From a virus, in IMG/VR virus record IMGVR_UViG_3300007351_000496: 64,000 nt of DNA; one strand, given 5' to 3'. The position numbers and the translations under genes were made by a program. Below the pieces are notes generated by a model. That model did not search any database and was not told the DNA's origin. It saw only the letters and a list, made by a program, of their open reading frames with translations. Below are positions 12,219 through 56,132 of this stretch, piece by piece. Numbering within the stretch: the first letter of the stretch is position 1; each line of letters starts with the position of its first letter.

Positions 12219-12692
12219 TTAAAACATCAACAATCCAAGACCTACGAGGGCTGCTACCATACCTAAACGTGCTTGTTGTGATGTTACTCCTGCCCTTTGA
12301 AAAAGCCTACGCTTTTCACGCGTTGGTGCCTCAAATTTAGGCAAAAGCATAACGGGTTTATCACTTTCAACAGGGCCCGGAGCAGCTTGTGGAGCAGCCT
12401 GTTGTTGTGGTCCATAATACGGATACCCTGGATATGCATACGGATACCCTGGATAATACCCAGGATAAACAACTTGTCTTGTTGGCTCTAAAGGCGTAGC
12501 AATAATCCCACCCGATGTGGGTGCCATAACCGGACCTGCACTTGGAGCACCGCCACCGCCGCCATTTCCTCCTGTGGATGATCCGCCTCCGCCTCCGCCT
12601 CCGCCTCCGCCTCCTTCGCCACCCTCAGCTCCAAATCCCCAGACTCTATTTAGTCCACCATAATTACCGCGGAGTTTAGCCCGTATATACAT
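12219..12692 (-). CDS. Gly/Pro/Tyr-rich protein with C-terminal membrane anchor
   Basis: GFGAE motif near the N-terminus, poly-Gly, YPGYPY repeat, hydrophobic C-terminus. Confidence 0.7.
   Translation of the reverse strand: MYIRAKLRGNYGGLNRVWGFGAEGGEGGGGGGGGGGGSSTGGNGGGGGAPSAGPVMAPTSGGIIATPLEPTRQVVYPGYYPGYPYAYPGYPYYGPQQQAAPQAAPGPVESDKPVMLLPKFEAPTREKRRLFQRAGVTSQQARLGMVAALVGLGLLMF
12417..12614. repeat. Coding micro-repeats: 18-bp direct repeat (12417-12434, 12438-12455) and (CCGCCT)5 (12583-12612)
   Basis: Visible tandem units encoding YPGYPY twice and poly-Gly. Confidence 0.85.
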
Positions 12693-12694
12693 AG

Positions 12695-13060
12695 TTATCC
12701 TCTTTGTCTCTTTCTAATAAAGATTTTTTGATAATTCTCATCATCATATGATGCAAAATTCCACTGAGTTTGTGAAAGAGGAATTGCTGTATAATCAAAA
12801 TTTAAGTATCTATATAAAGGATGATCCTCCAAACTATTTTGGACGGCGTTTAAAATAGCTGGTAAATTGTCTTTTTTGTCGTCGGACAAAACTAATAATA
12901 GCTTAACACTCGTTCGAGTTTTTTTCGAATCAGTTTTTACTTTTTCTAACCCTTGTGCTAGCAACCCAACTTCCTCCTCCACTTCAAGAAGCCTTCTGTA
13001 CATTAACGCTCCAGCGTGTTTATCAGCATAACGAATTGAAAATAGTTCAGCTCTAGTCAT
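12695..13060 (-). CDS. Hypothetical protein
   Basis: 121-aa ORF tightly packed with its neighbours, GAGG RBS. Confidence 0.7.
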   Translation of the reverse strand: MTRAELFSIRYADKHAGALMYRRLLEVEEEVGLLAQGLEKVKTDSKKTRTSVKLLLVLSDDKKDNLPAILNAVQNSLEDHPLYRYLNFDYTAIPLSQTQWNFASYDDENYQKIFIRKRQRG

Positions 13061-13066
13061 GACGCC

Positions 13067-13402
13067 TCACTTCTTTGTTAAGAGGTTAAGGTAAATAGAA
13101 AGAGTTGCCATAGCTGCCAAGTATAAAAGACTTTTTTTCATAAATGAAGAAAGAGAAACTAACTCTTCAACAGCAATTTTAGTTTTATAATCAAACCGAC
13201 GTGCAAGTTCTTCGATAGGAATATTTTTAATTCTTTGTATATATGCATCCATATCATCAACGGATGCTTCTACCTTGGTTAGAACTTCGCGCCCTTGATG
13301 AATTGCACCCTGCGCTTCTTGAATAGCCGCGTCCGCACGCTGAGCAGCGACATTCACAGCCTTAACTGACTTTTTAGTGCTTGAAAATAATCCACCTAGC
13401 AT
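13067..13402 (-). CDS. Coiled-coil protein with C-terminal membrane anchor
   Basis: Helical body, C-terminal LLYLAAMATLSIYLNLLTKK. Confidence 0.7.
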   Translation of the reverse strand: MLGGLFSSTKKSVKAVNVAAQRADAAIQEAQGAIHQGREVLTKVEASVDDMDAYIQRIKNIPIEELARRFDYKTKIAVEELVSLSSFMKKSLLYLAAMATLSIYLNLLTKK

Positions 13403-13422
13403 GATTTTAATTATAACATATC

Positions 13423-15115: not shown

Positions 15116-15160
15116 ATCTCTATTCTACACATTTATTGGAATAACATTGATTATTTTATT

Positions 15161-15607: not shown

Positions 15608-15611
15608 TACC

Positions 15612-17720: not shown

Positions 17721-17734
17721 AAATGGAGTTATGA

Positions 17735-21754: not shown

Positions 21755-22243
21755 ATGGTACGTTCTTATTTTGGTCAAACTACTCCTATAGTCAATGCTC
21801 CAGCCCCGGGCACAGTTGTCTATCAAAATACTGCTGTCGTGCCGTCTGTGTACTTACCTTACTCTAGTACTAGATTCCTGCGCCGCCTTGAAAGTCAACC
21901 GGGTCAACCATATATTATGGCGACTACGGGGGAAGAGCTTGAACGCGCCATTTATAAAGATATTCCTCTTAACGGGCCTTCAGCTGCTCCTCCCGCAGAA
22001 GGAACTGAACCACAGAAAATAGTAACCTTAAAATCTGGACTTGAAGTGCCGACTGAACTGCTTCAGCGCGACGTAGAAAGAAAAAAAGCTGCTGCGACTG
22101 AAGCTGATCTGCTTGCCAAAACAAAGCCATCTCTATTACTACAAGTTGGACATTTTGCCAGCTCACACCCAGCTCAGGCCACAGTGATTGCCCTCGCAAT
22201 TGGTGCAGCGATTGGCAGTATCTTTTTTGATGTTCAACATTAA
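21755..22243 (+). CDS. Tail-anchored membrane protein, putative virion protein
   Basis: N-terminal YFGQ; C-terminal TM VIALAIGAAIGSIFF. Confidence 0.75.
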   Translation: MVRSYFGQTTPIVNAPAPGTVVYQNTAVVPSVYLPYSSTRFLRRLESQPGQPYIMATTGEELERAIYKDIPLNGPSAAPPAEGTEPQKIVTLKSGLEVPTELLQRDVERKKAAATEADLLAKTKPSLLLQVGHFASSHPAQATVIALAIGAAIGSIFFDVQH

Positions 22244-22279: not shown

Positions 22280-23512
22280 ATGTACCAGAAACCATTCGGC
22301 TCAATATTTGCCGCAGATATAACACCAACTCCAGAGTTACCTCCAACCGAGATCGAAGTCAAAAAAATAGAGCAAGAAATTGCGACGCCTCCTCCACTCA
22401 AACCACTCTTCGACCACACGGCTCCGCAATTTAAAGCAGCTGTAACAGTCACTACTGCGGATCCGGAGATAAAACTTGCACAGGCTAGTCTCCTGTCCAA
22501 TAAAGCCAAACTTCAACTTGAAGCGTTTCAACGGATACTTAGAAAAACTAAGTCGCGCATCAAAAATGCACAAATCTATAAAGCAACTCTTTCAGAACTT
22601 GCTCAGCTACCTCCTAATAAACAAAACGAGTTAGAAACATTTTTTTCTGGGTATGCAGAAAAAATAAAGCAACTTGCAAAGGCACTAGAACTTAATGACA
22701 TCTCTCAGGAGTTTGCTGAAGCAGCAAAAGCTCTTGATTTAGAAATTCAGCAATGGGATGAAATAAAACAAACTAAAGGCAAACGCCAACTGCGCATTTT
22801 TAGACCAACAGAAGTTATTGTTAAAGACACTCCTCCGAATGAGTCCTCCTTGCCTATATTCAAGGGTAAGCCATTCCCTATGGATAAAATAGCGCGCTTA
22901 AATAAACAAGGGGTAGCCATTGCAAAGGGTTACGACGGTCTTGGAGAGAGTTACTATCAAAAATTCGCAAAACAGCAACCCAGCACAGCGTCTCTAAAAG
23001 AGAGACGAATTAAGGGTTTCGAGCGGGGAGATTTCCGTCGCGGCATAGAAAAGAATGTGCTATCTGCCAAAGAGTATCAATGGCAAATTGCCGAAACACA
23101 GCGTGATATCAACTCAGAACTTTTGGAATATAACAAAATTCAAGCTGAGGCAGACGCACTCAGTAAGAAAATTTTAGAAATAAACCCCGATCTTACAAAA
23201 ACGATTGCGGGGTTGGGAGTTCTCAGTCTTTATTCGCCTAAAAATATGATGATTCGTCCTCTTCTCGATGCTGTAACTTCTGCGGTAACTACACCCTCGC
23301 AACTTGGAGAAACTCCAGAGGCAGTATTAAATACAACAGTAGCAACAACACAGGCAGCCCTTAAAGAATTACAAACTCGTGAAAAGGTACTTGACACTCT
23401 AGTTGATAAGGTGCTAGAGCCTAAAAAATCGACCATACCAAGTTTCTCCAAAAATTGGCTATTACTAGGAGCACTTGTGTTATTCTTTATCTGGCTGAGA
23501 AGGGGTGAATAA
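22280..23512 (+). CDS. Coiled-coil tail-anchored protein, putative virion protein
   Basis: PFGS, GLGE and QLGE motifs; C-terminal WLLLGALVLFFIWLRR. Confidence 0.8.
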   Translation: MYQKPFGSIFAADITPTPELPPTEIEVKKIEQEIATPPPLKPLFDHTAPQFKAAVTVTTADPEIKLAQASLLSNKAKLQLEAFQRILRKTKSRIKNAQIYKATLSELAQLPPNKQNELETFFSGYAEKIKQLAKALELNDISQEFAEAAKALDLEIQQWDEIKQTKGKRQLRIFRPTEVIVKDTPPNESSLPIFKGKPFPMDKIARLNKQGVAIAKGYDGLGESYYQKFAKQQPSTASLKERRIKGFERGDFRRGIEKNVLSAKEYQWQIAETQRDINSELLEYNKIQAEADALSKKILEINPDLTKTIAGLGVLSLYSPKNMMIRPLLDAVTSAVTTPSQLGETPEAVLNTTVATTQAALKELQTREKVLDTLVDKVLEPKKSTIPSFSKNWLLLGALVLFFIWLRRGE

Positions 23513-23892
23513 TGGCCTACGAAACGATTAAAAACCAGCCGAACAGACTAGGAGAATTTGAGGGTTCTGATGGGGTAGACTACATCAATGCTGTTGGCAG
23601 TATCATCACAGGTGTTGTAGGTTCAGTCTATGACTATAAAAAAGTTGCTCGACAATCCAAGGATACACGCGCTGTTGCAATTAATGAAACGATCGAGGCA
23701 ACAAAAAAACTTGGGCTCCAAGTGTCCGGTACTACCGAGCAAGCACGTATTGCAGCTGAACAGGCCAAAACTAAATATCGAACAATTCCTGTAGTTGTAG
23801 CAGCCAGCGGCACTATTGTCGTAGGGGTAATTCTAGCCAGTGCTTGGGCATATAATAAAATAGTCGGAGACTACGAAATCGAATACCAATAA
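23512..23892 (+). CDS. Membrane protein, putative virion protein
   Basis: RLGEFEG near the N-terminus; TM near the C-terminus; TAATG coupling. Confidence 0.75.
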   Translation: MAYETIKNQPNRLGEFEGSDGVDYINAVGSIITGVVGSVYDYKKVARQSKDTRAVAINETIEATKKLGLQVSGTTEQARIAAEQAKTKYRTIPVVVAASGTIVVGVILASAWAYNKIVGDYEIEYQ

Positions 23893-23893: not shown

Positions 23894-24244
23894 ATGTATG
23901 TTAAACAGAAAACATCATATAACGGCTTCGGCTGGATTGCAGAAACAGTAATAGGAGTAGCGCAGGCTGCTGCCCTCGGGACAGCATCTGCCATTCAGTA
24001 CGATAAAATAAAAAAACAACAAAAAAAGACAAAAACTTCTCTTCTTGCAACCCAAAATAAGGCTTTAACTGAACAACAGCAGTTGCTCGCGGAAAAAGAA
24101 AGAGCTTTACTGAGCCAACAAGAAACAGAAATGTGGTCGGAGCAGCAACTTAAGTCAACAGTAATATCGGTAATAGTCGTGGCTGTGATTGCTAGTATTA
24201 TTGGAGTTGTCGCATTTGTTAAAGTAGGAACCAAAAATGAGTAA
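23894..24244 (+). CDS. Membrane protein, putative virion protein
   Basis: NGFGW, short coiled coil, C-terminal TM. Confidence 0.75.
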   Translation: MYVKQKTSYNGFGWIAETVIGVAQAAALGTASAIQYDKIKKQQKKTKTSLLATQNKALTEQQQLLAEKERALLSQQETEMWSEQQLKSTVISVIVVAVIASIIGVVAFVKVGTKNE

Positions 24245-24563
24245 TCTTGGTCAACTAATGTCAGTCATTAATTTAGTTAACCAAGTTGGTTACGCAATTG
24301 GGCAAGGAGTTATTGGTACTCAAAGAGTTAAAGGTGACGTTAAGCTAGAAAAACTACGAGAACAACACAGGAAAGAACTAGAAACCGGAGAATTATCATT
24401 CCGTGAAAAAGAACTTGCCTTGAAATTACAATCTGCGGCTCGGCAGGATCAACTTTATAAGAATATTGCAATATATACAGGCATCGGAATCACCCTTGTA
24501 ATAGGTATAATTACCATTAGCGCAGTTTACTTTTCAAAAAAGGAGAAAGGAAAGCGGAAATGA
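24237..24563 (+). CDS. Membrane protein, putative virion protein
   Basis: SNLGQ at the N-terminus, coiled coil, TM and basic tail. Confidence 0.75.
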   Translation: MSNLGQLMSVINLVNQVGYAIGQGVIGTQRVKGDVKLEKLREQHRKELETGELSFREKELALKLQSAARQDQLYKNIAIYTGIGITLVIGIITISAVYFSKKEKGKRK

Positions 24564-24808
24564 GTTATCAGACTATGCGAGGACTAGGAGCTTTTGGAAA
24601 AGGCCCTCCAATGCCGCCCCCAGAGCCGCCCCCACCTGATGTCGCACCTACAATTACTCCTGAAGTCGAACTTGATATTCTGCGGCAAACACTTCCTGCA
24701 GCTCAACCAGAACCAAGTACAATGCGTTCATATGCAATGCCTCTTTTAGTTGGCGGAAGTGTATTGCTTTTAGGAACTATTGGTTTGATTTTAATGCTAC
24801 GAGTTTAG
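24560..24808 (+). CDS. Pro-rich tail-anchored protein
   Basis: GLGAFG, poly-Pro, C-terminal TM. Confidence 0.75.
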   Translation: MSYQTMRGLGAFGKGPPMPPPEPPPPDVAPTITPEVELDILRQTLPAAQPEPSTMRSYAMPLLVGGSVLLLGTIGLILMLRV

Positions 24809-27291: not shown

Positions 27292-28464
27292 ATGATTGTC
27301 TGCGCAGTCTGCAACTTAGAGTTCACACCAAAATGTCATAACGCAAAATATTGCAGTGATATCTGTAAGCTTACAGGCGCAAAACTGGCAACTAAAAAAC
27401 GTAACCAGCACATTATAAAAGAACAGAAAATATATGATAAAACTTGTAAACAATGCTTAACGCCATTTACAACAATTGAACATCGGAAAAAATATTGCAG
27501 TTCAACATGTGCTAACATTAGAAGAAATACAAATAGAAGAATTATATATAAGCACCGATTAGAAAATAATATATGTCCGCATTGCTCCTGCCGACAGACT
27601 CTTCCTGGATTTGCATCATGTCAGCATTGCAAAGATTCAGTAATACAATGCAAGCTCCAGCAACGAGCTACCGCAATAACTATTGGTCGATGCCGCGACT
27701 GCCACGAACCAGCGGTTGAAAATAAACTATTTTGCGAAGAATGTTTAAAAAAGGCAACCATTCGAACTAGTATAAATATTCAACATAGAAAAGAGCAACA
27801 CTTGTGTCTCAGATGCCGATCACCTCTCTACGCTGACTACAATAAATTTATTTGCGCAACGTGTTTAGCTGATGAAAATCAAAAAAATTTTCAAATAAAA
27901 TTAGCGGTGTTTAATCATTATGGCATGGAATGTCAATGCTGTGGTGAGGCTCAATTAGATTTCTTATCCTTAGATCACATTGAAGGAGGTGGTAACTCCC
28001 ATCGAAAGGCTATACTCGATCAAGAACACTACACCGGTGGCGGTGGGGGGATTACAACCTATAAATGGATAGTGAAACATAATTTTCCTCTGGGATTTCA
28101 AACATTATGTTTTAACTGCAATTTTGCGACATACTTTAATAAGGGAGTCTGTCCGCACGCAGGTATGTTACAAGTAAATATGACTAGTGATTATAACAAA
28201 CTCAAAACAAAAGTATTCAGCCATTACGGTATGCGATGCAATTGTTGTGGAGAAAACAATTACTTATTCTTAAGTATAGACCACGTTCTCGGCGATGGCG
28301 CACAGCATCGAAGAGAGGAAAATATAGGAGGAGGAAATAAGTTATATCTCTGGCTTGTTAAGAACAACTATCCCTCCGATTTTCAGTTATTGTGCCATAA
28401 TTGTAACCAGTCCAAAGGAACAGGTCCGTTATGTGCGCATAAAAATGTTATAATTACCACATGA
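27292..28464 (+). CDS. Cys-rich homing-type endonuclease with two HNH-like domains
   Basis: Several CxxC fingers, then two copies of HYG..C.CCGE...FLS.DH..GxG...FQ.LC.NCN. Confidence 0.8.
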   Translation: MIVCAVCNLEFTPKCHNAKYCSDICKLTGAKLATKKRNQHIIKEQKIYDKTCKQCLTPFTTIEHRKKYCSSTCANIRRNTNRRIIYKHRLENNICPHCSCRQTLPGFASCQHCKDSVIQCKLQQRATAITIGRCRDCHEPAVENKLFCEECLKKATIRTSINIQHRKEQHLCLRCRSPLYADYNKFICATCLADENQKNFQIKLAVFNHYGMECQCCGEAQLDFLSLDHIEGGGNSHRKAILDQEHYTGGGGGITTYKWIVKHNFPLGFQTLCFNCNFATYFNKGVCPHAGMLQVNMTSDYNKLKTKVFSHYGMRCNCCGENNYLFLSIDHVLGDGAQHRREENIGGGNKLYLWLVKNNYPSDFQLLCHNCNQSKGTGPLCAHKNVIITT

Positions 28465-28871
28465 AACGCACTTTGGGGCAATATACTTATTGGAATCCAC
28501 CTGCATATTACCAGGCGATGGAACATGATCCGACTCAAATTCCAACCCAATATCCATATGGAGGAGGATCTTGGGGGCCATATGGTCCTTGGTACGGATG
28601 GGCCTTTGGTCAGAGAACCTTCGAAAAAGAGGACGCAGATAGACGGGCTCGTGAACAAGCTCAAGCGATGCTTCTTCGTTCAGAAATTTCTAGTGATCCA
28701 AAAGATAAATACATTACCCCAGAAGGAAGATTGAACCCTGGCATTGCTGTCGCGCTACAAAAAGCTCAACAATCTATGCAACCTCGCCCAGAGGATATGG
28801 CTAAAAGTTTACAAAAAAAGATTGTCATCACATTACTAGTAAGTACAGTTATTGCGGCCCTATTGAGGTAA
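28461..28871 (+). CDS. Tail-anchored protein, putative virion protein
   Basis: RTLGQY at the N-terminus, G/Y/W/P-rich segment, C-terminal TM. Confidence 0.75.
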   Translation: MKRTLGQYTYWNPPAYYQAMEHDPTQIPTQYPYGGGSWGPYGPWYGWAFGQRTFEKEDADRRAREQAQAMLLRSEISSDPKDKYITPEGRLNPGIAVALQKAQQSMQPRPEDMAKSLQKKIVITLLVSTVIAALLR

Positions 28872-29752: not shown

Positions 29753-30055
29753 TTAAAATTTAAAATATTTACAAACTGCATAACCTAAACCGGCGGCACT
29801 TATTAGTAATACCGGTAGGGGTACCCGGGCCAAGTGTTCCCAAAGCCCTAATTCTGTGAGAACGTCAGCGGGCGGAATTTCACTTTCAATGTAGTATTTA
29901 TCAATTACGGAGTCGATGTCATTATCTCCAAGTGATCGTCTAATTTTATCGACAACCTGTGAGACCTTATACTTTTTCTCAAGATCTGCTCGAGACTCGT
30001 AAAAAATAGGAGTCGTAGCATCTCGACGAAGATCACGTAATTGCTGAGATTTCAT
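29753..30055 (-). CDS. Tail-anchored protein
   Basis: SLGD motif; C-terminal TM. Confidence 0.7.
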   Translation of the reverse strand: MKSQQLRDLRRDATTPIFYESRADLEKKYKVSQVVDKIRRSLGDNDIDSVIDKYYIESEIPPADVLTELGLWEHLARVPLPVLLISAAGLGYAVCKYFKF

Positions 30056-30363
30056 TATCTCTTAGCCCTCTTTACTTTAATAAGCAATAACACTACTAAG
30101 CCAGCGAGCAGTGTCTTAGTACTCCATCCATAAAACTCATTAGGTAAAAAGTCTCCTGACTGAACTTGTGCTAAGATATCTGTCTGCCCAAATCCCTCTA
30201 ACTGTCCTGTTCGAGAAGCAGAGGCGACAATCAATCTCTCCGCTTCTGTTCCATATCGCGTAATATCAATAAGTGGCTCCTGGCGTTTAGACAGAGCAAC
30301 ACCTTTCTTTAATTTATTAATAATGTTTCGATAGTTCATTTGACTATTAATGTTGATTTTCAT
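30055..30363 (-). CDS. Tail-anchored protein
   Basis: EGFGQ motif; TLLAGLVVLLLI plus basic tail. Confidence 0.7.
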   Translation of the reverse strand: MKININSQMNYRNIINKLKKGVALSKRQEPLIDITRYGTEAERLIVASASRTGQLEGFGQTDILAQVQSGDFLPNEFYGWSTKTLLAGLVVLLLIKVKRAKR

Positions 30364-34821: not shown

Positions 34822-35142
34822 CTAACTGCTCTTTTTCTTCTTTCTACGATATGCCCACGCAAAGCCAAGAAAAGCTACTCCAAGCAACCATACTGGAAAC
34901 CCTCCAATGTTTTGAGCGAAAATTGATTTTGGAGGGGGTCCTGCGCGCATTGGCTGTGCTATTGGTGTGACCTCACTAGCTACAGTAATCTCCTCTTCTT
35001 CCTCATCTTCTTCCTCATCCTCATCAACTTGTCCAAGACGAATATCCATTCGTTTTACAGGAGGAGAGGCTCCGTATCTGCTATAAAGATCATCGAATAT
35101 TCCTTGATCTGTTTGTCCATAAATAGAAGAATATAAGCTCAT
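34822..35142 (-). CDS. Acidic tail-anchored protein
   Basis: IYGQ, RLGQ, poly-Glu, TM and RRKKKK tail. Confidence 0.75.
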   Translation of the reverse strand: MSLYSSIYGQTDQGIFDDLYSRYGASPPVKRMDIRLGQVDEDEEEDEEEEEITVASEVTPIAQPMRAGPPPKSIFAQNIGGFPVWLLGVAFLGFAWAYRRKKKKSS

Positions 35143-37627: not shown

Positions 37628-38167
37628 TTACCCCACCGTAGTTTTCAAATCCTCGATGTGATAAACTTTGTAACCTATGAACCCCAATCTAATTTCATTA
37701 GTCGCAAGAGAAATATCAGTCAATTCAATTGTGATTGTTGACGCTCTTGCAATGAACCGAGGTTTTGGAAGAATAAGTGGAAGTTGCGCGGTACCAGCTG
37801 CAATATCAGAGTGAGTTGCAATATTGGACCATTGACGGTCGTTAGACGAGTCGCGAACCAAGAAAGCAAATGGAGCTGTTGCTACTCGAACAACTTTCGT
37901 TAAATAAAAATCAGCTTCACGAGTTACTGAAATTGTAGTCGTTGCAGTTCCGCCCGCAGCTAATGTGATCGGCTGAGTTGCATAGATAAAGTACTCATCG
38001 AAGTTACCAGATTCGATCTTACGAATCTTTTCTGCTAACTTAAAGTTATCCTTACGTAAACGCTTATTCTCTTCTTGCATTGCAAGAAGAATTTCTTGAA
38101 GAGTTTGCAGATTTAAACCACCTGCACCGGCGTCATCTTGTCCGAATGTTCCTAAAGTTGAAGGCAT
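37628..38167 (-). CDS. Putative single-jelly-roll capsid protein with N-terminal coiled coil
   Basis: Start placed at ATG 38167 (GGAG RBS); TLGTFGQ, coiled coil, then ADFYLTK..GTAQLPLILPKPR..STITIEL..IRLGFIGYK. Confidence 0.6.
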   Translation of the reverse strand: MPSTLGTFGQDDAGAGGLNLQTLQEILLAMQEENKRLRKDNFKLAEKIRKIESGNFDEYFIYATQPITLAAGGTATTTISVTREADFYLTKVVRVATAPFAFLVRDSSNDRQWSNIATHSDIAAGTAQLPLILPKPRFIARASTITIELTDISLATNEIRLGFIGYKVYHIEDLKTTVG

Positions 38168-51228: not shown

Positions 51229-51259
51229 ACTTGCGAAGTATCGCACAGATTTGAGATAT

Positions 51260-51817
51260 CTAGTGTACCTCGCGTTTAAAGAATCCATCCAAGTAAACAC
51301 TCAGACCAACAGTGGCTGAAAGGGTCTGAGGAACCGGGAAGTTGATTTCACAACGGAAGTTCTGTTGTGGAATCAGATCGATTGGTTCAGCGAGGACATA
51401 AATTCCGCGCTGGTCAGGCTTACCGTTGTGGACTGAAACCACGTCGGTTGAGCCAGCAGCAACACCTTCAAGACCAACACCAGCGGTCAACATAAAGAGG
51501 TTGACTACGAGATAGTCTTTAGTTCCGATAAAGAGTCGGAACCAAGCGTTGTTGAAGATCAGGTTGAGGTCAGCAATCGACGTATCATATTCGTTGATCA
51601 ATCGAAGTGCGTGAATCTCAAAGTTCTTCGGATATGGAAGGCTTCCACCCTGATCCATATTGGTGTCAACTTGGGTCTTCGGAGTAGCACCACCCGGAGG
51701 TGTTCCACCCAGAGGAACCTGGAAGTAGTTCAACTGTCCAGTACCGCTAGTAGCGACGGTATTTCTGTCGTAAAGCGGTTGCTGAATTCTTTCTAGCAAA
51801 CCAGGAATACGAGGCAT
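51260..51817 (-). CDS. Putative major capsid protein (single jelly roll, inferred), copy 2
   Basis: 185 aa, beta-rich: QPLYD, YFQVPLG, TNM..G.LP.P..F, PQQNF, VYLDG; AAGGAG RBS, raised GC. Confidence 0.65.
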   Translation of the reverse strand: MPRIPGLLERIQQPLYDRNTVATSGTGQLNYFQVPLGGTPPGGATPKTQVDTNMDQGGSLPYPKNFEIHALRLINEYDTSIADLNLIFNNAWFRLFIGTKDYLVVNLFMLTAGVGLEGVAAGSTDVVSVHNGKPDQRGIYVLAEPIDLIPQQNFRCEINFPVPQTLSATVGLSVYLDGFFKREVH

Positions 51818-51885
51818 TTGTTATTCTCCTTTTTTATCTTACTAATGTAAGTTTGTTTTTTGTACTGCGTATATGCGCAATAGAT

Positions 51886-52455
51886 TTAGTGTACCTCGCG
51901 CTTAAAGAAGCCGTCGAGATAAACTGACAAGTCAACTGCTGTCGTCAGTGGAACACCGGCTGTGAATGGAACCGGGAAGTTGATTTCACAACGGAAGTTC
52001 TGTTGTGGAATCAGATCGATTGGTTCAGCGAGGACATAAATTCCGCGCTGGTCAGGACGACCGTTCTGCACTGAGATAACGTTGGTTGAACCGGCGGCTA
52101 CGCCGTCAAGACCAACGCCAGCTGTTAACATAAAGGAGTTAACAACCAAATAGTCCTTAGTGCCGATAAAGAGACGGAACCAAGAGCTATCAAAAATACG
52201 GTTAAGGTCAGAAACTGGAGCCCCGTATTCGTTGATTAGACGGATAGCATGGATCTCAAAGTTCTTCGGGTATGGAAGTGATCCACCCTGATCCATGTTC
52301 GTTTGTACCTGGGTCTTGGCCGTAGCCGCACCAGCAGCGGTTCCACCGAGCGGAACCTGGAAGTAATTCAATTGTCCAGTACCACTAGTTGCGACAGTAT
52401 TTCTGTCGTACAGCGGTTGCTGAATTCTTTCAAGCAGACCTGGAATACGAGGCAT
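51886..52455 (-). CDS. Putative major capsid protein (single jelly roll, inferred), copy 1
   Basis: About 86% identical to 51260-51817 by manual alignment. Confidence 0.65.
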   Translation of the reverse strand: MPRIPGLLERIQQPLYDRNTVATSGTGQLNYFQVPLGGTAAGAATAKTQVQTNMDQGGSLPYPKNFEIHAIRLINEYGAPVSDLNRIFDSSWFRLFIGTKDYLVVNSFMLTAGVGLDGVAAGSTNVISVQNGRPDQRGIYVLAEPIDLIPQQNFRCEINFPVPFTAGVPLTTAVDLSVYLDGFFKREVH

Positions 52456-52587
52456 TTTGCCACCTTCCTTGATTATGTGACCTTCATATACAAAAGTATT
52501 TGGACATTGAAGGTTTGTTGATTTCTCTCTAAGTAATCATACTAAAATTTAGTAATGTCCCGATTACTTAGGACTAAATTGTTTTAA

Positions 52588-53463
52588 CTAGTCTGAGTCA
52601 ATAATTGGCTCAAACAGTGTTCCTTCGTAACCACCGTAAGCACCGGCCGCATTCTTCATAACGTCGGCGACCTGTTGATCACGAGGGTTTGGAGTCTCTG
52701 GCACGAAACCAGCTAATCCGCGCTCACTCTCGAAAGATCCAAGACGCTGGGTGTTATAGATATCACCAAGTGGCTCATATCCGCTCAAGAATGGATTATC
52801 TTCTGGATCTAGCAAATCAGTAGCTGCTACAACTGGCTGTCCTAGCCCATTCATCCCAGGAGCAACGCCCTGTGTGAATTCATCGTAGTAAGACTGTCCT
52901 AGCCCTTCAAACTCTTTTTGCCATGAACCAAAGCCGGCGAGACCACGCTGACCGAGCCAAGCTTCGACTGGAGTCTGTGCGATCTTCCAGAAGCCGAGAG
53001 TCATTGCACCGACTGCACCAGGAACTGCGACCTGCCGCAAGAAACGGCCGACGCCACTTTCCGCACCGAGCATATCAGCCAAGGTTAGGGCAGCTGCACC
53101 ACCACCAACACCGCTTGCGATAGCGAGTACACCTTGTCCAAGACTTCCTTGTCCAACGCGCTCACCAAGCAGCTTTGATCCAACTGCGAGTACTGCACCA
53201 CCACTTACAGCGGCTACTGCAGCATTTAGTATGTTTCTTCCGCGCTCACCAGCGACCTCCTGAACAGCGACCTTTAGGTCGGGGTTCCGACGACGCCGAC
53301 GAAGAGCCATCGGGTTCTTACGATTTTTCTTTCTTTTCGCCATTTTTTCTTTTCCTTTCCCTTCTTCTAATGAATAAGGGTTAACTATTAGCAATTCAGG
53401 ATTGCGCCTTTTGCCCTTTTTCTTGTTTCTTGGTAACTCAGAAGGATTGACCATGTAGAACAT
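52588..53463 (-). CDS. Putative major virion membrane/scaffold protein
   Basis: Basic N-terminus with five NP motifs, Gly/Ala hydrophobic helices, acidic C-terminus with repeated GLG/LG motifs; directly upstream of the capsid-like pair. Confidence 0.7.
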   Translation of the reverse strand: MFYMVNPSELPRNKKKGKRRNPELLIVNPYSLEEGKGKEKMAKRKKNRKNPMALRRRRRNPDLKVAVQEVAGERGRNILNAAVAAVSGGAVLAVGSKLLGERVGQGSLGQGVLAIASGVGGGAAALTLADMLGAESGVGRFLRQVAVPGAVGAMTLGFWKIAQTPVEAWLGQRGLAGFGSWQKEFEGLGQSYYDEFTQGVAPGMNGLGQPVVAATDLLDPEDNPFLSGYEPLGDIYNTQRLGSFESERGLAGFVPETPNPRDQQVADVMKNAAGAYGGYEGTLFEPIIDSD

Positions 53464-53631
53464 GTATTACTCCAAATAAAAAAGAGCACTCAGTAGGCTT
53501 GTCCCACTTCATGCTCTGCATTTAACAGTTGCATTAGATTGTTTGTTCTAACCAAATTACAGGCTCTATTAACTAGTAACCTGTAACATCCAAATGTTAG
53601 TATATTTGTAATACGGTTGTCAATACTTTTT

Positions 53632-54021
53632 TTATATTTTTTTCCTAAATTTTGTGGTCTGATTGAATCCTTCTATTTTTGAATTCTTAATCAAAATAGT
53701 AACTTGTTGGAAAGGCTTTTCTCGTAAGAGTTTAATGATTTCAATTTCCTCTGGAGTAAGATTTGTTTTTGCTGCAACAAGTCCAAAGAAAACAAACCCG
53801 CCCCCCTTTTTTCGTCTAAATTTTAATGTTTGATTCACAGAAGTGATAACTGAATCTTGGATTTGAACAGAAATTTCTTGATATGCATTTCCACGTATCA
53901 AACTAATAATAGCGGTCTCCTCCTGAGTTAAATTCAGGGGTGGAGGTGTGACAGGCAGTCTAGATTGTTGTGCTATATTATCCAATGATTCCTCGTTCTG
54001 TAAAACTAAACTCTGCACCAT
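53632..54021 (-). CDS. Protein with two DUF2292-like repeats
   Basis: LT.EE..II.L.R...Q.....I..S.I...NQT.KFR occurs twice. Confidence 0.6.
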   Translation of the reverse strand: MVQSLVLQNEESLDNIAQQSRLPVTPPPLNLTQEETAIISLIRGNAYQEISVQIQDSVITSVNQTLKFRRKKGGGFVFFGLVAAKTNLTPEEIEIIKLLREKPFQQVTILIKNSKIEGFNQTTKFRKKI

Positions 54022-54586
54022 ACATAATTAAAAAATCTCTATTAGGGCTAACACAAACAATTGGTTTTTCTTTTGCGGGGGGCTCATCGTCCCCTCGATC
54101 TTTCGCCTCATGAATAAAAGGAACGCCTCGCCGTTCTGAGTATTCAGGAACAGAATAAACTATAAAATTTAAATGTCCAAAAAAGAACAATTTTTCTGCA
54201 GGTAAAGTATCGACAGCTTTTATCTGATCGTGTTCTGTACCATGGAATGCTTCGTGTAAATCAACGGCTTCTTTGACTACGTTATTACTTTCGTCTAATT
54301 CTACTGCCCCCACGACCTTATCCCCTGAAACAATCATCACATACTTACCATCTCCAGATGCTACAACTAACGGGCGTCGCTTGGATTTTATTAATCCATA
54401 AGAATCAACTTTACTTTCTAAAGGTGTTTCACACTCAAATTCAATGAGTTCACCAACTAATAAAACACTTTTCGGTAAGTCAGAAATTGAAAGACCACAG
54501 GCTATATCTTTTTTCTTACCAGTAAATCTAGCTTCACCAACAATTGATTTTGTTTGTGTTAGATTTCGACGATATCTGCGAATCAT
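53978..54586 (-). CDS. Hypothetical protein
   Basis: 202 aa, starts MIRRYRRN. Confidence 0.7.
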   Translation of the reverse strand: MIRRYRRNLTQTKSIVGEARFTGKKKDIACGLSISDLPKSVLLVGELIEFECETPLESKVDSYGLIKSKRRPLVVASGDGKYVMIVSGDKVVGAVELDESNNVVKEAVDLHEAFHGTEHDQIKAVDTLPAEKLFFFGHLNFIVYSVPEYSERRGVPFIHEAKDRGDDEPPAKEKPIVCVSPNRDFLIMYGAEFSFTERGIIG

Positions 54587-54780
54587 TAAAATATATTAAC
54601 AAATATTATTTACGAAGAAGCAAAAATAAGGCTCCCAACACTAAAAGCACCCACAAAATCTGTTTATTTGAAGTATCTCCAAGACCCTCCAGCGATGCAT
54701 ATTTAGCAGGTAATATCTGTGAAGGTTTAGCGACTAGCCCCATTCCAAAGTTTAAGTTATCTAAGTGGCCAAATTTCATT

Positions 54781-55143
54781 TTACCCCCTTAGCATTTTCA
54801 TTTTTTTACGCATTCCAGCTAACATTTTTCTTTGCTTTTGTTGTTGTGAATATAAAACGATAAAGGCCACTACCAATGCAATTGCCACGAGTAATAATAA
54901 TTTCATTTTATTACTCTCCATCCAAAAACCAAACCCACTTATCCCAGTATTTAAGGGTGTGGTGACCGGCGTAGAAGCTGCAACAGAGTTAGTATCCTTA
55001 GAAACATCAGATTTAATTTTTTGTTCTTCTTTTAACTTTTCTTCTAGCTTAGGCTCATATTTAGGCTCGGTAAAGTACGTATTTTGAGTTGTTCTGCTCC
55101 ACGCAGATTGCTTACCATACAGAGGTTCAAATATACCTGCCAT
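54781..55143 (-). CDS. Membrane protein, putative virion protein
   Basis: ISGFGFW, TM LLLLVAIALVVAFIVLY, basic tail. Confidence 0.75.
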   Translation of the reverse strand: MAGIFEPLYGKQSAWSRTTQNTYFTEPKYEPKLEEKLKEEQKIKSDVSKDTNSVAASTPVTTPLNTGISGFGFWMESNKMKLLLLVAIALVVAFIVLYSQQQKQRKMLAGMRKKMKMLRG

Positions 55144-56132
55144 TATTTCTTCTTACGCTTTGCCTTTAACATTGTTGCTTGTCGCTTCTTCCACCAACAA
55201 GCAAGACCGCCTAATGTTAATCCTACCAGACCAAGAGTTAAATAACTATGTTTGGAAACAAAATCCCATGTTCCCAATTGTCCAGTTTTTTCTAATTCGA
55301 GTTTTAGTTTGTCTCCAAGAGCCATATTCTCTTGCATTTTGACATCGTCTTTATCTCCCCGCCCAAGATTTGCCCCAACAGTTCCAACGACTTTATTTAA
55401 CATTGCATCGAAACCGCCTGTTTTGGGAATATTAGGATTTACCAACCAACCTAGGTTAGCTTCAATTTCTGCACGTTCAATGTCTAAGTATCTTAGATTC
55501 GTATTTTTGCGCTGTTTCAGCATAGCCATTGCGTGTTCATAGTATCCACGTTTAACAGCAGGAGGAGTATCGTTGGGAACCGCCTTAACAGCTTTTCTAA
55601 GCATTCTTATTAGATCAGTATCAGTCTTAGACATCGTCGCTTGGTGAAAAAAGGTGTGCCAACTTTCGAGAGGTGTCTCTCCCAACCCACCATAACCATC
55701 AAATTCATCAACATCATCAGAAATTTTATTTTCTCTTGCGATTTCTGAAGCTTGTTTCATAGAAAGAGCTTGTCCAAAGCCAGCAAATGCATCATCCTGC
55801 ATATCTCCAAGACCTTCATATCCAGTCATACCTTGAAGTCCGGCAGGAGTCCTTGTAGACTCCTTCTTAATCAAAGATCCGGCTTGAGAAAGTGTGAGGT
55901 TTCCGGAGTCATATTCTTGAAATCCAGCGTAATGCGCTGGATAAGCTTCGTAACCTGCTAAACCCTGCAACCCCGCCGGCAACTTATTTTGATTCTTTCG
56001 TGCTATGCGAGATGCGGAAGCGATATTCAAATCGCCTGCATTCATTCCGTTTTTACCGTTAACTGCAGCACCAAAGCCTTCGCCCACTTGGTACTCAGCA
56101 AAGCTGTTTGTGTCTGCACGTTTGTATGCCAT
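55143..56132 (-). CDS. Repeat-containing tail-anchored protein
   Basis: Three L...QA..I.R/K repeats, five [L/F]G motifs, TM and KKR tail. Confidence 0.75.
   Translation of the reverse strand: MAYKRADTNSFAEYQVGEGFGAAVNGKNGMNAGDLNIASASRIARKNQNKLPAGLQGLAGYEAYPAHYAGFQEYDSGNLTLSQAGSLIKKESTRTPAGLQGMTGYEGLGDMQDDAFAGFGQALSMKQASEIARENKISDDVDEFDGYGGLGETPLESWHTFFHQATMSKTDTDLIRMLRKAVKAVPNDTPPAVKRGYYEHAMAMLKQRKNTNLRYLDIERAEIEANLGWLVNPNIPKTGGFDAMLNKVVGTVGANLGRGDKDDVKMQENMALGDKLKLELEKTGQLGTWDFVSKHSYLTLGLVGLTLGGLACWWKKRQATMLKAKRKKK

What the first reader, a model, noticed from the sequence alone, without database searches (positions are those of the whole stretch)
12219..56132. Shared x-[L/F/Y]-G-[Q/D/E] motif in more than 20 putative virion proteins: a possible maturation or sorting signal
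Seen: about 13 otherwise unrelated proteins carry the motif within their first ~22 residues. These are YFGQ (21755), PFGS (22280), RLGE (23512), GFGW (23894), NLGQ (24237), GLGAFG (24560), TLGQ (28461), SFGQ (33937), IYGQ (34822), GFGDFGE (35537), TLGTFGQ (37628), GFGA (12219) and GFGA (55143). Internal copies occur in 18227 (GLGD, GYGD), 29753, 30055 (GFGQ), 31079, 45364, 54781 and SpeE, with five or more each in 52588 and 55143. Nearly all of these proteins have a C-terminal TM. Established: several internal-membrane viruses process virion proteins at short Gly motifs (adenovirus protease, poxvirus AG/X, ASFV GG/X). Inference: this is a virus-wide cleavage, cross-linking or docking code. It is the strongest candidate for an undescribed system in the window.
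Basis: partly seen in the sequence, partly recalled or inferred. Interest (0 to 1): 0.85.

Follow-up and report, generated by a model that had tools for sequence, protein, structure and literature searches.

The report
Shared N-terminal Phe/Leu-Gly tag on virion membrane proteins
About a dozen unrelated, membrane-anchored proteins of an uncultured large jelly-roll virus begin with the same short, conserved Phe/Leu/Tyr-Gly tag, which probably directs them into the virus particle, though its exact job (docking, cutting or cross-linking) is not yet known.

Summary
In the window, 12 of 27 tail-anchored (TA) proteins start an [LFY]G within their first 12 residues (3.75 expected). Non-TA proteins show no excess. 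In an unbiased scan, FG is the top N-terminal dipeptide of 400.

Thirteen mutually unrelated families keep the motif in nearly all orthologues from 4-8 syntenic metagenomic relatives (25-68% identity), with synonymous codon changes. Eight families without it also lack it in relatives. The core is phi-G, phi being F>L>Y. It is usually followed by Q, E or K and is often tandem with period 3 (FGEFG, GLGAFG).

The element looks like a large internal-membrane virus with two single-jelly-roll capsid proteins. A tail-anchored transglutaminase-fold protein with an invariant Cys-His-Asp triad heads the capsid operon, directly upstream of tagged genes. The same order occurs in a ~15-kb relative.

My best reading (about 0.42) is a shared binding/sorting tag that docks these proteins to a common capsid-proximal partner. 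The main rivals are a cleavage site for the transglutaminase-fold protease (about 0.25) and cross-linking (about 0.08). Other notes of this scan on this window are untested first-reader notes.

The parts
21755..22243 (+). TA protein with an N-terminal S-Y-F-G-Q tag (residues 4-8)
   Evidence: [FL]GQ at residues 6-8 in 4 of 4 orthologues at 40-45% identity, while the downstream region varies. Codons differ synonymously. A -10 box lies just upstream of the ATG.
22280..23512 (+). TA protein, 410 aa, low complexity, with N-terminal M-Y-x-x-P-F-G-S-[IL]-F
   Evidence: PFGS is identical in 5 of 5 orthologues at 27-31% overall identity. It is the most conserved 4-residue window of the protein and is followed by an indel-rich linker.
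23512..23892 (+). TA protein with N-terminal QPxRLGEF
   Evidence: RLGEF is found in 4 of 4 orthologues, at the 98th conservation percentile within the protein.
23894..24244 (+). TA protein with N-terminal GFGW; orthologues have FGEFG or GLG
   Evidence: The motif is conserved in 4 of 4 orthologues with 1-3 tandem copies. It is followed by a hydrophobic segment.
24237..24563 (+). TA protein with N-terminal NLGQL
   Evidence: [LF]GQ[LI] is found in 4 of 5 orthologues; the fifth probably has a miscalled start. Two orthologues have FGEFGQ.
24560..24808 (+). TA protein with N-terminal GLGAFGKG followed by a poly-Pro linker
   Evidence: phiG-x-FGKG is found in 3 of 3 orthologues.
28461..28871 (+). 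TA protein with N-terminal TLGQ
   Evidence: [LF]G lies at residues 3-9 in 5 of 5 orthologues. The next residue is Q in 3 and V in 2.
33937..34785 (-). TA protein with N-terminal SFGQ (a weak member)
   Evidence: Orthologues have F-N-G, L-S-G or L-N-G (phi-x-G) at the aligned place. Only the Gly is kept.
34822..35142 (-). TA protein with N-terminal S-I-Y-G-Q
   Evidence: S[IL][YF]G is found in 5 of 6 orthologues. The next residue varies: Q, I, A or K.
35537..36259 (-). Soluble protein: N-terminal arm GFGDFGELPEDLRG plus a C1q/BclA_C-like beta head
   Evidence: Of the 15 invariant columns in 9 homologues, 6 (G17, E18, E21, D22, L23, R24) lie in the motif. The Atlas structure rows for residues 56-233 are C1q, BclA_C and collagen-associated heads.
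37628..38167 (-). Highly conserved coiled-coil protein with no TM; N-terminal arm TLGTFGQ
   Evidence: [FL]GQ is found in 4 of 4 orthologues, behind a Gly/Pro/Gln-rich extension of variable length (motif at residues 8-34). A distant homologue in L004 lacks the arm.
54606..54779 (-). 57-aa TA protein with N-terminal KFGHLDNLNFGMGL
   Evidence: [FL]G...[FL]GMGL is found in 4 of 5 orthologues.
54781..55143 (-). TA protein with N-terminal F-E-P-L-Y-G-K
   Evidence: F[EQ]PL[FY]G is found in 5 of 5 orthologues, although mean identity over the protein is only 0.22. Codons differ.
55143..56132 (-). TA protein with N-terminal SFAEYQVGEGFGAAV and many internal G-phi-G copies
   Evidence: [SGD]F[AG][EA]Y is found in 5 of 5 orthologues and GFGAAV in 3 of 5. 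There are 11 [LFY]G in all, against 6.3 expected.
12219..12692 (-). Gly-rich TA protein with N-terminal NYGG and GFGA
   Evidence: The motif is present. No orthologue was obtained, so conservation is untested.
56149..56853 (-). Tail-anchored transglutaminase-fold Cys-His-Asp enzyme, first gene of the capsid operon; the candidate enzyme for the tags
   Evidence: Pfam Transglut_core, E 3.5e-11. C133, H168 and D183 are invariant in 23 homologues down to 25% identity. The model has pLDDT 86.7 and its best PDB matches are bacterial transglutaminase-like cysteine proteases, TglA, LapG, CPR-C4 and Pei. The gene order is conserved in L001, L020, L021, L022 and L024.
52588..53463 (-). Basic N-terminus (RRNPELLIVNP), Gly/Ala-rich membrane segments and an acidic tail with conserved LG[QDS] copies; lies directly upstream of the capsid genes; a possible partner or lattice protein
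   Evidence: Alignment of 5 orthologues. There are 11 [LFY]G against 6.7 expected. L024 has a protein of the same layout at the same position.
51260..52455 (-). Two tandem 185/189-aa single-jelly-roll capsid protein paralogues
   Evidence: The two are 84% identical. The model has pLDDT 83. Best structural matches are the capsid proteins of SPV1 (Z 8.0; Foldseek E 8e-4), HHIV-2 (Z 7.5), HCIV-1 and P23-77 VP17/VP16. There are 80 metagenomic homologues.
57502..57816 (-). Coiled-coil protein with a C-terminal (L/F)GG repeat tail
   Evidence: NLGGLGPLFGGGIGP is conserved as (LGG)n in 5 of 5 orthologues. This is a C-terminal variant of the same kind of motif.
30055..30363 (-). TA protein with a conserved internal G[FL]G[QD] at about residue 58
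   Evidence: The motif is present in 6 of 6 orthologues.
9602..10396 (-). Trypsin_2 serine protease with an N-terminal signal anchor; an alternative candidate protease
   Evidence: Pfam E 3.6e-14. The His (NFHV), Asp (DLAL) and Ser (GFSGGG) are present, with a hydrophobic N-terminus after two Arg.

Best explanation
The motif is a short linear tag. Its core is phi-Gly (phi = F > L > Y). Gly or Ser is common three residues before the Gly, and Q, E or K is common directly after it. It is frequently repeated with period 3 (FGEFG, GLGAFG, GFGDFGE). It sits in the first 5-20 residues of 13 otherwise unrelated proteins in the structural gene modules of an uncultured, large, internal-membrane virus that has two single-jelly-roll capsid proteins. 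Eleven of the 13 are anchored by a C-terminal transmembrane helix.

Most likely mechanism (inferred): the tag is a binding or sorting signal. Each protein sits in the viral membrane and presents the tag on an N-terminal arm. The arm plugs into one common partner, either the underside of the jelly-roll capsomers or a membrane-proximal lattice protein such as 52588. This selects and positions the membrane proteins and the C1q-like 35537 during particle assembly.

The tail-anchored transglutaminase-fold Cys-His-Asp enzyme at the head of the capsid operon may additionally trim or fix the tags.

Shown here: the motif exists, is enriched, is conserved at the protein level, and co-occurs with the enzyme and capsid genes. 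Inferred: virion location, the binding partner, and any processing.
For: - Enrichment and N-terminal bias occur only in TA proteins.
- Thirteen tagged families keep the motif in orthologues at 25-68% identity. Eight untagged families (24835, 26365, 29753, 30055, 31079, 32730, 45364, 56149) lack it in all orthologues.
- The motif window is in the top 20% of conservation within the protein in 8 of 13 families.
- Codons vary synonymously at the motif.

Features that favour binding over cutting:
- Tandem copies whose number differs between orthologues (1-3).
- Excess internal G-phi-G copies at varied places in TA proteins (18 against 3.4).
- A C-terminal (LGG)n version in 57502.
- Presence on two non-membrane proteins, one of them a C1q/BclA_C-like head with an N-terminal arm.
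- An indel-rich, linker-like stretch after the tag in 6 of 13 families.
- Variable distance from the N-terminus in 37628 and 35537.

Structural context:
- The capsid-like model matches capsid proteins of internal-membrane single-jelly-roll viruses.
- In those viruses, membrane proteins with terminal TM helices lie beneath capsomers and pentons and position them (PMC6414509).
Against: - No partner or pocket has been identified, and no complex could be modelled.
- The tag is directly followed by conserved or hydrophobic sequence, not a linker, in about half of the families.
- The conserved adjacency to an active-looking Cys-His-Asp enzyme in divergent lineages fits an enzyme-substrate relation at least as well.
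- The basic C-terminal tails raise a topology question: the positive-inside rule would put the N-terminal domains on the far side of the membrane.
- Virion location of any of these proteins is unproven.
Confidence: 0.42

Rival explanations
1. The tag is a maturation cleavage site. The tail-anchored transglutaminase-fold cysteine protease (56149-56853) sits in the same membrane and on the same side as the N-termini. It recognises phi-G and removes the short N-terminal propeptide (or cuts at internal G-phi-G sites) during particle maturation.
For: - The Cys133-His168-Asp183 triad is invariant.
- The nearest solved folds are proteases: putative cysteine proteases 3isr and 3kd4, LapG, CPR-C4 and Pei.
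- From established knowledge, LapG cuts the N-terminal part of LapA at a short small-residue motif.
- The gene is the first of the capsid operon, directly upstream of three tagged genes. The same order holds in L001, L020, L021, L022 and the ~15-kb L024, where the next two TA genes start MYVVNGLGA and MTYVVSRGLGA. In L025 the next gene starts MMKLLGHDLLGA.
- The motif is N-terminal and Gly-centred, as in known viral maturation sites.
- The sequence upstream of the tag can vary freely in length (37628 family).
Against: - Tandem and internal copies would mean multiple cuts.
- The propeptides would be as short as 4-6 residues.
- A transglutaminase-fold virion enzyme could equally be a cell-wall endopeptidase for entry or lysis, like the Pei enzymes that appear among the matches.
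- In L026 the gene after the enzyme shows no clear tag.
- There is no direct evidence of processing.
Confidence: 0.25
2. The tags are cross-linking sites. The transglutaminase-fold enzyme joins the Gln of phi-G-Q tags to Lys residues (for example phi-G-K tags or capsid lysines), covalently stitching membrane proteins to each other or to the shell.
For: - The enzyme has the transglutaminase fold and triad.
- Q directly after the Gly is invariant in the 21755, 24237 and 37628 families.
- K follows it in the 24560 and 54781 families.
- GQ is the third most enriched N-terminal dipeptide.
Against: - Only 5-6 of 13 families have Q.
- 23512 and 35537 have an invariant E, which cannot be an acyl donor; others have S, W, A, M, V or I.
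- True cross-linking transglutaminases rank below the protease-like members in the fold search.
Confidence: 0.08
3. The tag has an intrinsic physical role rather than serving as a recognition signal. It could be an aromatic-Gly membrane-interface anchor or hinge that folds the N-terminus back onto the bilayer. Alternatively, cohesive FG-like contacts among the tags and Gly-rich proteins could form a mesh between membrane and shell.
For: - Excess G-phi-G copies throughout TA proteins and in the Gly-rich 52588 and 55143.
- Period-3 tandem repeats.
- In 23894 and 24237 the tag runs straight into a hydrophobic or amphipathic segment.
Against: - Only 1-3 copies per protein in most families, far fewer than in cohesive FG domains.
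- Family-specific flanks are strongly conserved (PFGS[IL]F, QPxRLGEF, FGELPEDLR), which suggests specific recognition.
- The tag also occurs on soluble proteins.
Confidence: 0.12
4. The tag is a cleavage site for the trypsin-fold serine protease (9602-10396), which cuts after the hydrophobic residue (phi|G).
For: The Trypsin_2 domain has His, Asp and Ser in place and a membrane anchor. Chymotrypsin-like enzymes prefer F/L/Y at P1 (established knowledge).
Against: - The gene lies 12-45 kb from the tagged operons and not in a structural module.
- Its N-terminal signal anchor (Arg-Arg followed by a hydrophobic stretch) predicts a catalytic domain on the opposite side of the membrane from the N-termini of classical tail-anchored proteins (inference).
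- Conservation in relatives could not be tested.
Confidence: 0.05
5. The pattern is a chance or compositional artefact, or a nucleotide-level signal near start codons.
For: - The motif is only two fixed residues and was defined after looking at the data.
- Within the window, the unbiased FG enrichment is only borderline after correction for 400 dipeptides.
- TA proteins are richer in Gly and Leu.
Against: - None of 400 shuffles reach the observed counts.
- There is a clean split between 13 tagged and 8 untagged families, maintained across relatives down to about 25-30% identity.
- Codons at the motif vary synonymously.
- The motif is among the few invariant columns of 35537.
Confidence: 0.03

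Closest known systems
Membrane-proximal 'GPS' proteins and VP13 of sphaerolipoviruses (HCIV-1, HHIV-2), internal-membrane viruses with two single-jelly-roll capsid proteins (PMC6414509)
   Same: Both have two small jelly-roll capsid proteins; the best structural matches to the window's protein include HHIV-2 and HCIV-1. Both have many small proteins with a terminal TM helix. In those viruses such proteins lie under capsomers and pentons and position them.
   Different: No shared short N-terminal tag has been reported there, as far as I could find. No sequence homology was tested. Those genomes are about 30 kb and archaeal. This lineage has bacterial-type promoters and contigs from 15 kb to over 800 kb.
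Terminal targeting peptides of protein shells: encapsulin cargo-loading peptides, microcompartment encapsulation peptides, the phage T4 capsid-targeting sequence and the adenovirus fibre tail FNPVYPY motif (from established knowledge)
   Same: One short conserved terminal peptide, often on a flexible linker, is shared by unrelated proteins and docks them to a shell protein. 35537 (N-terminal arm plus trimeric-looking beta head) has the layout of a fibre or spike tail.
   Different: The sequence is different (phi-G-[QEK], tandem) and so is the shell fold. Here the carriers are mostly membrane-anchored. Binding has not been shown.
Gly-motif maturation cleavage in internal-membrane and related viruses: adenain (M/I/L)XGG-X, ASFV pS273R GG-X, poxvirus I7 AG-X
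   Same: A short Gly-centred motif is shared by many virion proteins of a membrane-containing dsDNA virus.
   Different: The residue before the Gly is F/L/Y, not G/A. No clan CE protease was found in the window. The copies are tandem and the putative propeptides very short.
LapG-type bacterial transglutaminase-like cysteine proteases acting on the N-terminus of LapA
   Same: Both involve a transglutaminase-fold Cys-His-Asp enzyme; LapG is among the fold matches. LapG cuts a membrane-associated substrate near its N-terminus at a short small-residue motif.
   Different: LapG is periplasmic and soluble and recognises a di-alanine (TAAG) site in one giant adhesin. Here the enzyme is tail-anchored, viral and would have about 13 substrates. 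Sequence similarity is remote.
BclA N-terminal domain attachment to the jelly-roll basal-layer protein BxpB/ExsFA in the Bacillus exosporium
   Same: A conserved N-terminal targeting motif on proteins with collagen or C1q-like heads attaches them to a jelly-roll lattice protein, with proteolysis and covalent linkage. BxpB and ExsF appear among the weak fold matches of the capsid model. 35537 has a BclA_C-like head, and a collagen protein is encoded at 45669.
   Different: The motif sequence is different, there is no homology shown, and the setting is a spore rather than a virus. The fold matches are weak.

Membership tests
Viral Gly-motif maturation cleavage (adenain / pS273R / I7, clan CE) | A clan CE (adenain/Ulp1-like) cysteine protease is encoded by the virus | tested here: not met
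   Pfam scans of about 60 window proteins found only Transglut_core (56149) and Trypsin_2 (9602) as protease-like domains. Only 64 kb of the 115-kb contig was visible.
Viral Gly-motif maturation cleavage (adenain / pS273R / I7, clan CE) | Site consensus GG-X, AG-X or (M/I/L)XGG-X | tested here: not met
   The position before the Gly is F, L or Y in all 13 families. The position after it is Q, E, K, S and others.
Viral Gly-motif maturation cleavage (adenain / pS273R / I7, clan CE) | Mature virion proteins start at the site | not testable with these tools
   This needs virion or metaproteome N-terminomics.
LapG-type transglutaminase-like cysteine protease with an N-terminal substrate site | Transglutaminase-fold domain with a Cys-His-Asp triad | tested here: met
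   Transglut_core E 3.5e-11. C133, H168 and D183 are invariant in 23 homologues. Fold matches include LapG structures 4fgp, 4fgo and 4fgq.
LapG-type transglutaminase-like cysteine protease with an N-terminal substrate site | Substrate carries a di-alanine (T/P)AAG site in an N-terminal retention module | tested here: not met
   The tags are phi-G and no AAG consensus is seen.
Transglutaminase cross-linking system | A conserved Gln acyl donor in every substrate tag | tested here: not met
   Q follows the Gly in only 5-6 of 13 families. E is invariant in 23512 and 35537, and other residues occur elsewhere.
Transglutaminase cross-linking system | Gln-Lys isopeptide bonds in the product | not testable with these tools
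   This needs mass spectrometry.
Double-glycine leader peptides with a C39 peptidase/ABC exporter | A leader of 15-30 residues ending in GG, GA or GS, and a C39-ABC transporter gene | tested here: not met
   There is no GG end. No C39 or ABC transporter domain appeared in the Pfam scans.
Type IV prepilin-like signal | A short basic leader, G|[FM], then about 20 hydrophobic residues with Glu at +5; an A24 prepilin peptidase | tested here: not met
   Only the 23894 family has a hydrophobic stretch (with E or Q at +4/+5) after the Gly. The other families have polar sequence there. No A24 peptidase was found.
Terminal targeting peptide for a protein shell (functional class, not a homologous family) | One short conserved terminal peptide shared by otherwise unrelated proteins | tested here: met
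   Thirteen families without detectable paralogy share the N-terminal phi-G tag, which is conserved in orthologues.
Terminal targeting peptide for a protein shell (functional class, not a homologous family) | A flexible linker between the peptide and the body of the protein | tested here: inconclusive
   An indel-rich, poorly conserved stretch follows the tag in 6 of 13 families and not in the others.
Terminal targeting peptide for a protein shell (functional class, not a homologous family) | The peptide binds a defined site on the shell protein | not testable with these tools
   No complex prediction was available; chimeric or multi-chain jobs are not accepted.
Internal-membrane viruses with two vertical single-jelly-roll capsid proteins (sphaerolipovirus-like, P23-77-like, SPV1-like) | Two paralogous small jelly-roll capsid proteins | tested here: met
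   The tandem 185/189-aa paralogues are 84% identical. The model is a jelly roll. Top matches are SPV1 (Z 8.0, E 8e-4), HHIV-2 (Z 7.5), HCIV-1 (6.9) and P23-77 VP17/VP16 (6.3/5.2). These Z values are middling.
Internal-membrane viruses with two vertical single-jelly-roll capsid proteins (sphaerolipovirus-like, P23-77-like, SPV1-like) | A packaging ATPase of the FtsK/HerA type and an internal lipid membrane | tested here: inconclusive
   No ATPase was recognised in the window by Pfam or PHROGs. The membrane is inferred only from the 27 TA proteins. About half of the contig was not seen.

The most novel reading that the evidence does not exclude
The tags and the tail-anchored transglutaminase-fold enzyme form a virus-encoded, sortase-like sorting system. 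The Cys-His-Asp enzyme cuts each tagged protein at phi-G and transfers it (or its new end) covalently onto the capsid lattice or onto another tagged protein. This would stitch a defined set of about 13 membrane and spike-like proteins to the shell. The module would be conserved from ~15-kb viruses to relatives with contigs above 800 kb.
Probability: 0.07. Interest if true: 0.9.

Novelty: new variant of a known kind. Interest (0 to 1): 0.62.

Why it matters
How internal-membrane viruses choose which membrane proteins enter the particle, and how those proteins are registered against the capsid lattice, is poorly understood even for PRD1, PM2 and the sphaerolipoviruses.

This lineage appears to mark about a dozen unrelated structural proteins with one short, readable tag. 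It also keeps a membrane-anchored Cys-His-Asp enzyme next to them. That gives a concrete, testable sorting or maturation code. The tag could be mutated, transplanted onto a reporter, or searched for in metaproteomes.

The lineage also seems undescribed. It has single-jelly-roll capsid proteins, contigs from 15 kb to 859 kb, and no hits in GenBank phages, IMG/VR or GTDB genomes. The tag could serve as a marker for finding its structural proteins.

Tried and rejected
- Paralogy as the source of the shared N-termini was rejected. All-against-all BLASTP finds no relation among the TA proteins, apart from a marginal 34822/54781 hit.
- A nucleotide-level signal was rejected, because codons vary synonymously at the motif.
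- Homologue search with 22280 was wasted. Its low complexity swamped the candidate list and only the protein itself was found.
- Relatives were sought without result in IMG/VR, GenBank phages and GTDB species genomes with the capsid and transglutaminase alignments (one search failed for lack of a conserved stretch). No whole genome is held for this window, and metagenome records could not be searched whole.
- PHROGs gave nothing useful for 10 structural-module proteins.
- Literature searches found no description of this motif or lineage. The 'moraphage' paper concerns tailed phages and did not look relevant.
- Distant transglutaminase homologues gave mixed results:
  - L023 is a cellular-looking context.
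  - L026 is high-GC with noisy ORF calls and no clear tag after the enzyme.
  - L025 shows a tag on the next gene but little else.
- A conserved motif just before the C-terminal TM (sortase, exosortase or GlyGly-CTERM style) was considered. GLG[SD] occurs before the TM in 31079, 54606 and 18227, but it is not conserved in the 31079 orthologues.
- A K+ channel filter reading of GYGD/GLGD in 18227 was rejected, because there is only one TM and no pore architecture.
- The ticket for the representatives search had to be polled several times.

Full report
**What the window is.**
The 64-kb window is densely coded on both strands with about 38% G+C. It belongs to a 115-kb metagenomic contig, and no genome is held for it. 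I built a set of 89 non-overlapping ATG ORFs. Of these, 27 have a hydrophobic C-terminal segment and are treated as tail-anchored (TA).

Pfam finds the following:
- two Hsp70 genes;
- a clamp-loader ATPase;
- SpeE fused to a C-terminal TM, with SpeD next to it;
- Fe/Mn superoxide dismutase and dCTP deaminase;
- HNH and LAGLIDADG endonucleases;
- glycosyltransferases;
- a collagen-repeat protein;
- a Trypsin_2 protease with an N-terminal anchor (9602-10396);
- a Transglut_core protein with a C-terminal TM (56149-56853).

Two tandem paralogues of 185 and 189 aa (84% identical) have 80 metagenomic homologues. They fold as a jelly roll (pLDDT 83). Their best structural matches are capsid proteins of internal-membrane viruses built from single jelly rolls:
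- SPV1 (Foldseek E 8e-4; VIA Z 8.0);
- HHIV-2 (Z 7.5);
- HCIV-1 (Z 6.9);
- P23-77 VP17 and VP16 (Z 6.3 and 5.2).

These Z values are middling, so this is a supported reading, not a proof. Many genes have a TATAAT-like box 5-10 nt before the ATG and no Shine-Dalgarno sequence, while operon-internal genes have GGAG-type sites. This indicates a bacterial-type host and supports the called start codons.

**Checking the observation.**
I found three more: 54606, 54781 and 13067.

Counts against within-protein shuffles:
- [LFY]G starts in residues 1-12 of 12 of 27 TA proteins, against 3.75 expected. None of 400 shuffles reach this.
- Non-TA proteins show 9 of 62 against 6.6 expected. Fisher p is 0.005.
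- [LFY]GQ occurs in 5 of 27 TA proteins against 0.21 expected.

Because the motif was defined after looking at the data, I scanned all 400 dipeptides in residues 2-16 of TA proteins. FG ranks first (6 against 0.79, p 1.1e-4) and GQ third. This is borderline after multiple-test correction, so the window alone would not be conclusive.

Internal copies are also in excess in TA proteins only. G[LFY]G occurs 18 times against 3.4 expected, while non-TA proteins show 11 against 12. The TA proteins are not paralogues.

**Conservation in relatives.**
I obtained syntenic relatives in three ways:
- walking along a 79-kb contig (L001, L005, L009);
- a metagenome scan with the 31079 family (L013 on an 859-kb contig, L014, L016, and L017 on a 243-kb contig);
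- look-ups of transglutaminase homologues (L020 on a 318-kb contig, L021, L022).

The modules corresponding to 20.7-42.5 kb and 47.8-60.5 kb of the window are collinear in these relatives, at 27-88% protein identity.

Thirteen families keep an N-terminal phi-G in nearly every orthologue:
- 21755 ([FL]GQ, 4 of 4);
- 22280 (PFGS[IL]F, 5 of 5, at about 30% overall identity);
- 23512 (RLGEF, 4 of 4);
- 23894 (4 of 4);
- 24237 (4 of 5);
- 24560 (3 of 3);
- 28461 (5 of 5);
- 34822 (5 of 6);
- 35537 (6 of 6, and 9 of 9 with the added representatives);
- 37628 (4 of 4);
- 54606 (4 of 5);
- 54781 (F[EQ]PL[FY]G, 5 of 5);
- 55143 (5 of 5).

Eight families that lack the motif in the window lack it in all orthologues: 24835, 26365, 29753, 30055, 31079, 32730, 45364 and 56149. 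33937 is a weak member, with phi-x-G in its orthologues.

In 35537, six of the 15 invariant columns lie in FGExxEDLR. The motif window is in the top fifth of conservation within the protein in 8 of 13 families. Codons at the motif differ synonymously between relatives, so selection acts on the protein.

**Anatomy of the tag.**
Weighting families equally:
- position -1 is F > L > Y;
- position 0 is G;
- position +1 is Q, E or K in about 8 of 13 families;
- position -3 is G or S in about 7 of 13;
- position -4 is often F.

This gives a period-3 unit that is frequently tandem, such as FGEFG, QLGEFGEFG, GLGAFGK, GFGDFGE and TLGTFGQ. Copy number (1-3) differs between orthologues.

Within a family the residue after the Gly is often fixed. 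It is Q in 21755, 24237 and 37628; E in 23512 and 35537; K in 24560.

Six tagged TA proteins also have Tyr at position 2 or 3 (6 of 27 against 2.0 expected). This is conserved in their orthologues and in L024.

In six families an indel-rich, polar stretch follows the tag. In the others conserved or hydrophobic sequence follows directly.

Two carriers have no TM:
- 37628 is a very conserved coiled-coil protein whose tag sits behind an extension of variable length.
- 35537 has a body that resembles C1q/BclA_C-type heads.

57502 carries a conserved C-terminal (LGG)n tail.

**The candidate enzyme.**
56149-56853 encodes a 234-aa Transglut_core protein with a C-terminal TM. Close relatives are 64-80% identical, more conserved than most neighbouring genes. 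Cys133 (in the DCDD motif), His168 and Asp183 are invariant in 23 homologues down to 25% identity. Its model (pLDDT 86.7) matches bacterial transglutaminase-like cysteine proteases (3isr, 3kd4), TglA, LapG, CPR-C4, TgpA and Pei. True cross-linking transglutaminases rank lower.

It is the first gene of a co-oriented run: enzyme, 55143, 54781, 54606, 53978, 53632, 52588, capsid 2, capsid 1. The same order is found in L001, L020, L021 and L022.

It is also found in L024, a 14.8-kb contig. There a 25%-identical TM-anchored homologue is followed by:
- two TA proteins starting MYVVNGLGA and MTYVVSRGLGA;
- a 53978-like protein (C-terminal ...TDRGLIG);
- a 52588-like basic and Gly-rich protein;
- a 184-aa homologue of the capsid protein (hhalign probability 97.2%, E 3e-11).

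In L025 the gene after the enzyme starts MMKLLGHDLLGA. L023 looks cellular and L026 is uninformative.

The trypsin-fold protease has its triad. However, it lies far from the structural modules, and its signal anchor predicts the opposite membrane side. That last point is inference.

**Mechanism.**
The data establish a selected, family-specific short linear motif on the N-terminal ends of structural-module proteins. They do not show what reads it.

I favour a binding or sorting tag (0.42) for these reasons:
- variable tandem copy number;
- extra internal and C-terminal copies;
- presence on soluble proteins, including a spike-like head with an N-terminal arm;
- linker-like sequence after the tag in half of the families;
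- variable distance from the N-terminus.

All of these are typical of docking motifs and awkward for a single cleavage site.

In the structurally closest viruses, membrane proteins with terminal TM helices sit under capsomers and pentons and position them (PMC6414509). That offers a plausible partner class. 52588, which is conserved immediately upstream of the capsid genes, is another candidate.

Cleavage by the transglutaminase-fold enzyme (0.25) is the strongest rival. It is supported by the conserved adjacency, the intact triad, the shared membrane anchoring and the protease-like fold neighbours.

Cross-linking (0.08) is weakened because Q is absent from most families and E is invariant in two. 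An intrinsic membrane or cohesive role (0.12), the trypsin-fold protease (0.05) and chance (0.03) remain.

One open problem concerns topology. Several TA proteins end in long basic tails, which by the positive-inside rule should stay cytoplasmic. That leaves it uncertain on which side the N-terminal domains lie.

**Comparison with known systems and novelty.**
The tag works like known terminal targeting peptides (encapsulin, microcompartment, T4 capsid-targeting sequence, adenovirus fibre tail) or like viral Gly-motif maturation sites. It fails the membership tests for adenain-, pS273R- and I7-type sites, double-glycine leaders, prepilin signals and the LapG TAAG site.

I found no description of the motif or of this lineage in the paper library. 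No relatives appeared in GenBank phages, IMG/VR or GTDB genomes. I rate it a new variant of a known kind.

**Limits.**
- TA status rests on a simple hydropathy rule.
- Orthologues are not statistically independent.
- Only 4-9 relatives per family were available.
- N-terminal positions depend on start calls, and a few orthologue starts look miscalled.
- Only 64 of 115 kb were visible.
- No complex modelling or proteomics was possible.

Noticed in passing
window, e.g. upstream of 21755, 28461, 31079, 33937, 56853, 13402, 18227, 27292: Many genes have an extended -10-like box (TGnTATAAT, GATATAAT or GTTATAAT) ending only about 5-10 nt before the ATG, with no Shine-Dalgarno sequence. This suggests leaderless or very short-leader mRNAs from bacterial sigma70-type promoters. 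Operon-internal genes use GGAG-type sites instead.
   Followed up: partly
L013 (Ga0315336_1000031, 859 kb), L017 (MDTD01135090.1, 243 kb), L020 (318 kb), P0117 (600-kb contig), L024 (14.8 kb): The same capsid and membrane-protein modules occur on contigs from about 15 kb (with a weak rolling-circle Rep hit) to 859 kb. Either this single-jelly-roll lineage spans an extreme genome-size range, or the largest contigs are integrated or chimeric. This was not resolved.
   Followed up: partly
window 51260-52455; L004:10001-10723: The capsid-like proteins have nearly invariant ends (MPRIPGLLERIQQPLYD... and ...GFFKREVH). These are kept even in a 240-aa version (40% identity) that sits beside ClpB and an intein-containing ribonucleotide reductase, on a contig without the transglutaminase/TA module nearby.
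   Followed up: no
window 45669-47462; L005:15156-17333 and L005:6217-8241: The collagen-repeat protein and, in a relative, a 725-aa animal-haem-peroxidase-domain protein share the same N-terminal about 180 residues (MxINFxxGDxVVV...). This suggests a common anchoring domain for surface fibres or enzymes.
   Followed up: no
window 35537-36259: Its body (residues about 56-233) resembles C1q/BclA_C-type trimeric heads in the Atlas structure search, so it may be a spike or decoration protein. The family is very narrow: only 5 cluster representatives in 1.8 billion proteins.
   Followed up: partly
window 53978-54586; L024:10124-10459: The C-terminal ...F[ST]ERG[IL]IG end of this protein is conserved from the large relatives down to the 15-kb L024. 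It therefore belongs to the ancient core of the capsid module. Its function is unknown.
   Followed up: no
window 42772-43164: A small stand-alone NFACT-R (RqcH/NEMF-type RNA-binding) domain protein is conserved in the 79-kb relative. This is unusual for a virus.
   Followed up: no
window 12219, 22280, 23512, 23894, 24560, 55143: Tagged TA proteins often begin M-Y or M-[AS]-Y (6 of 27 against 2.0 expected). The Tyr is kept in orthologues and in L024 (MYVV..., MTYVV...). It may be a second element of the N-terminal signal.
   Followed up: partly
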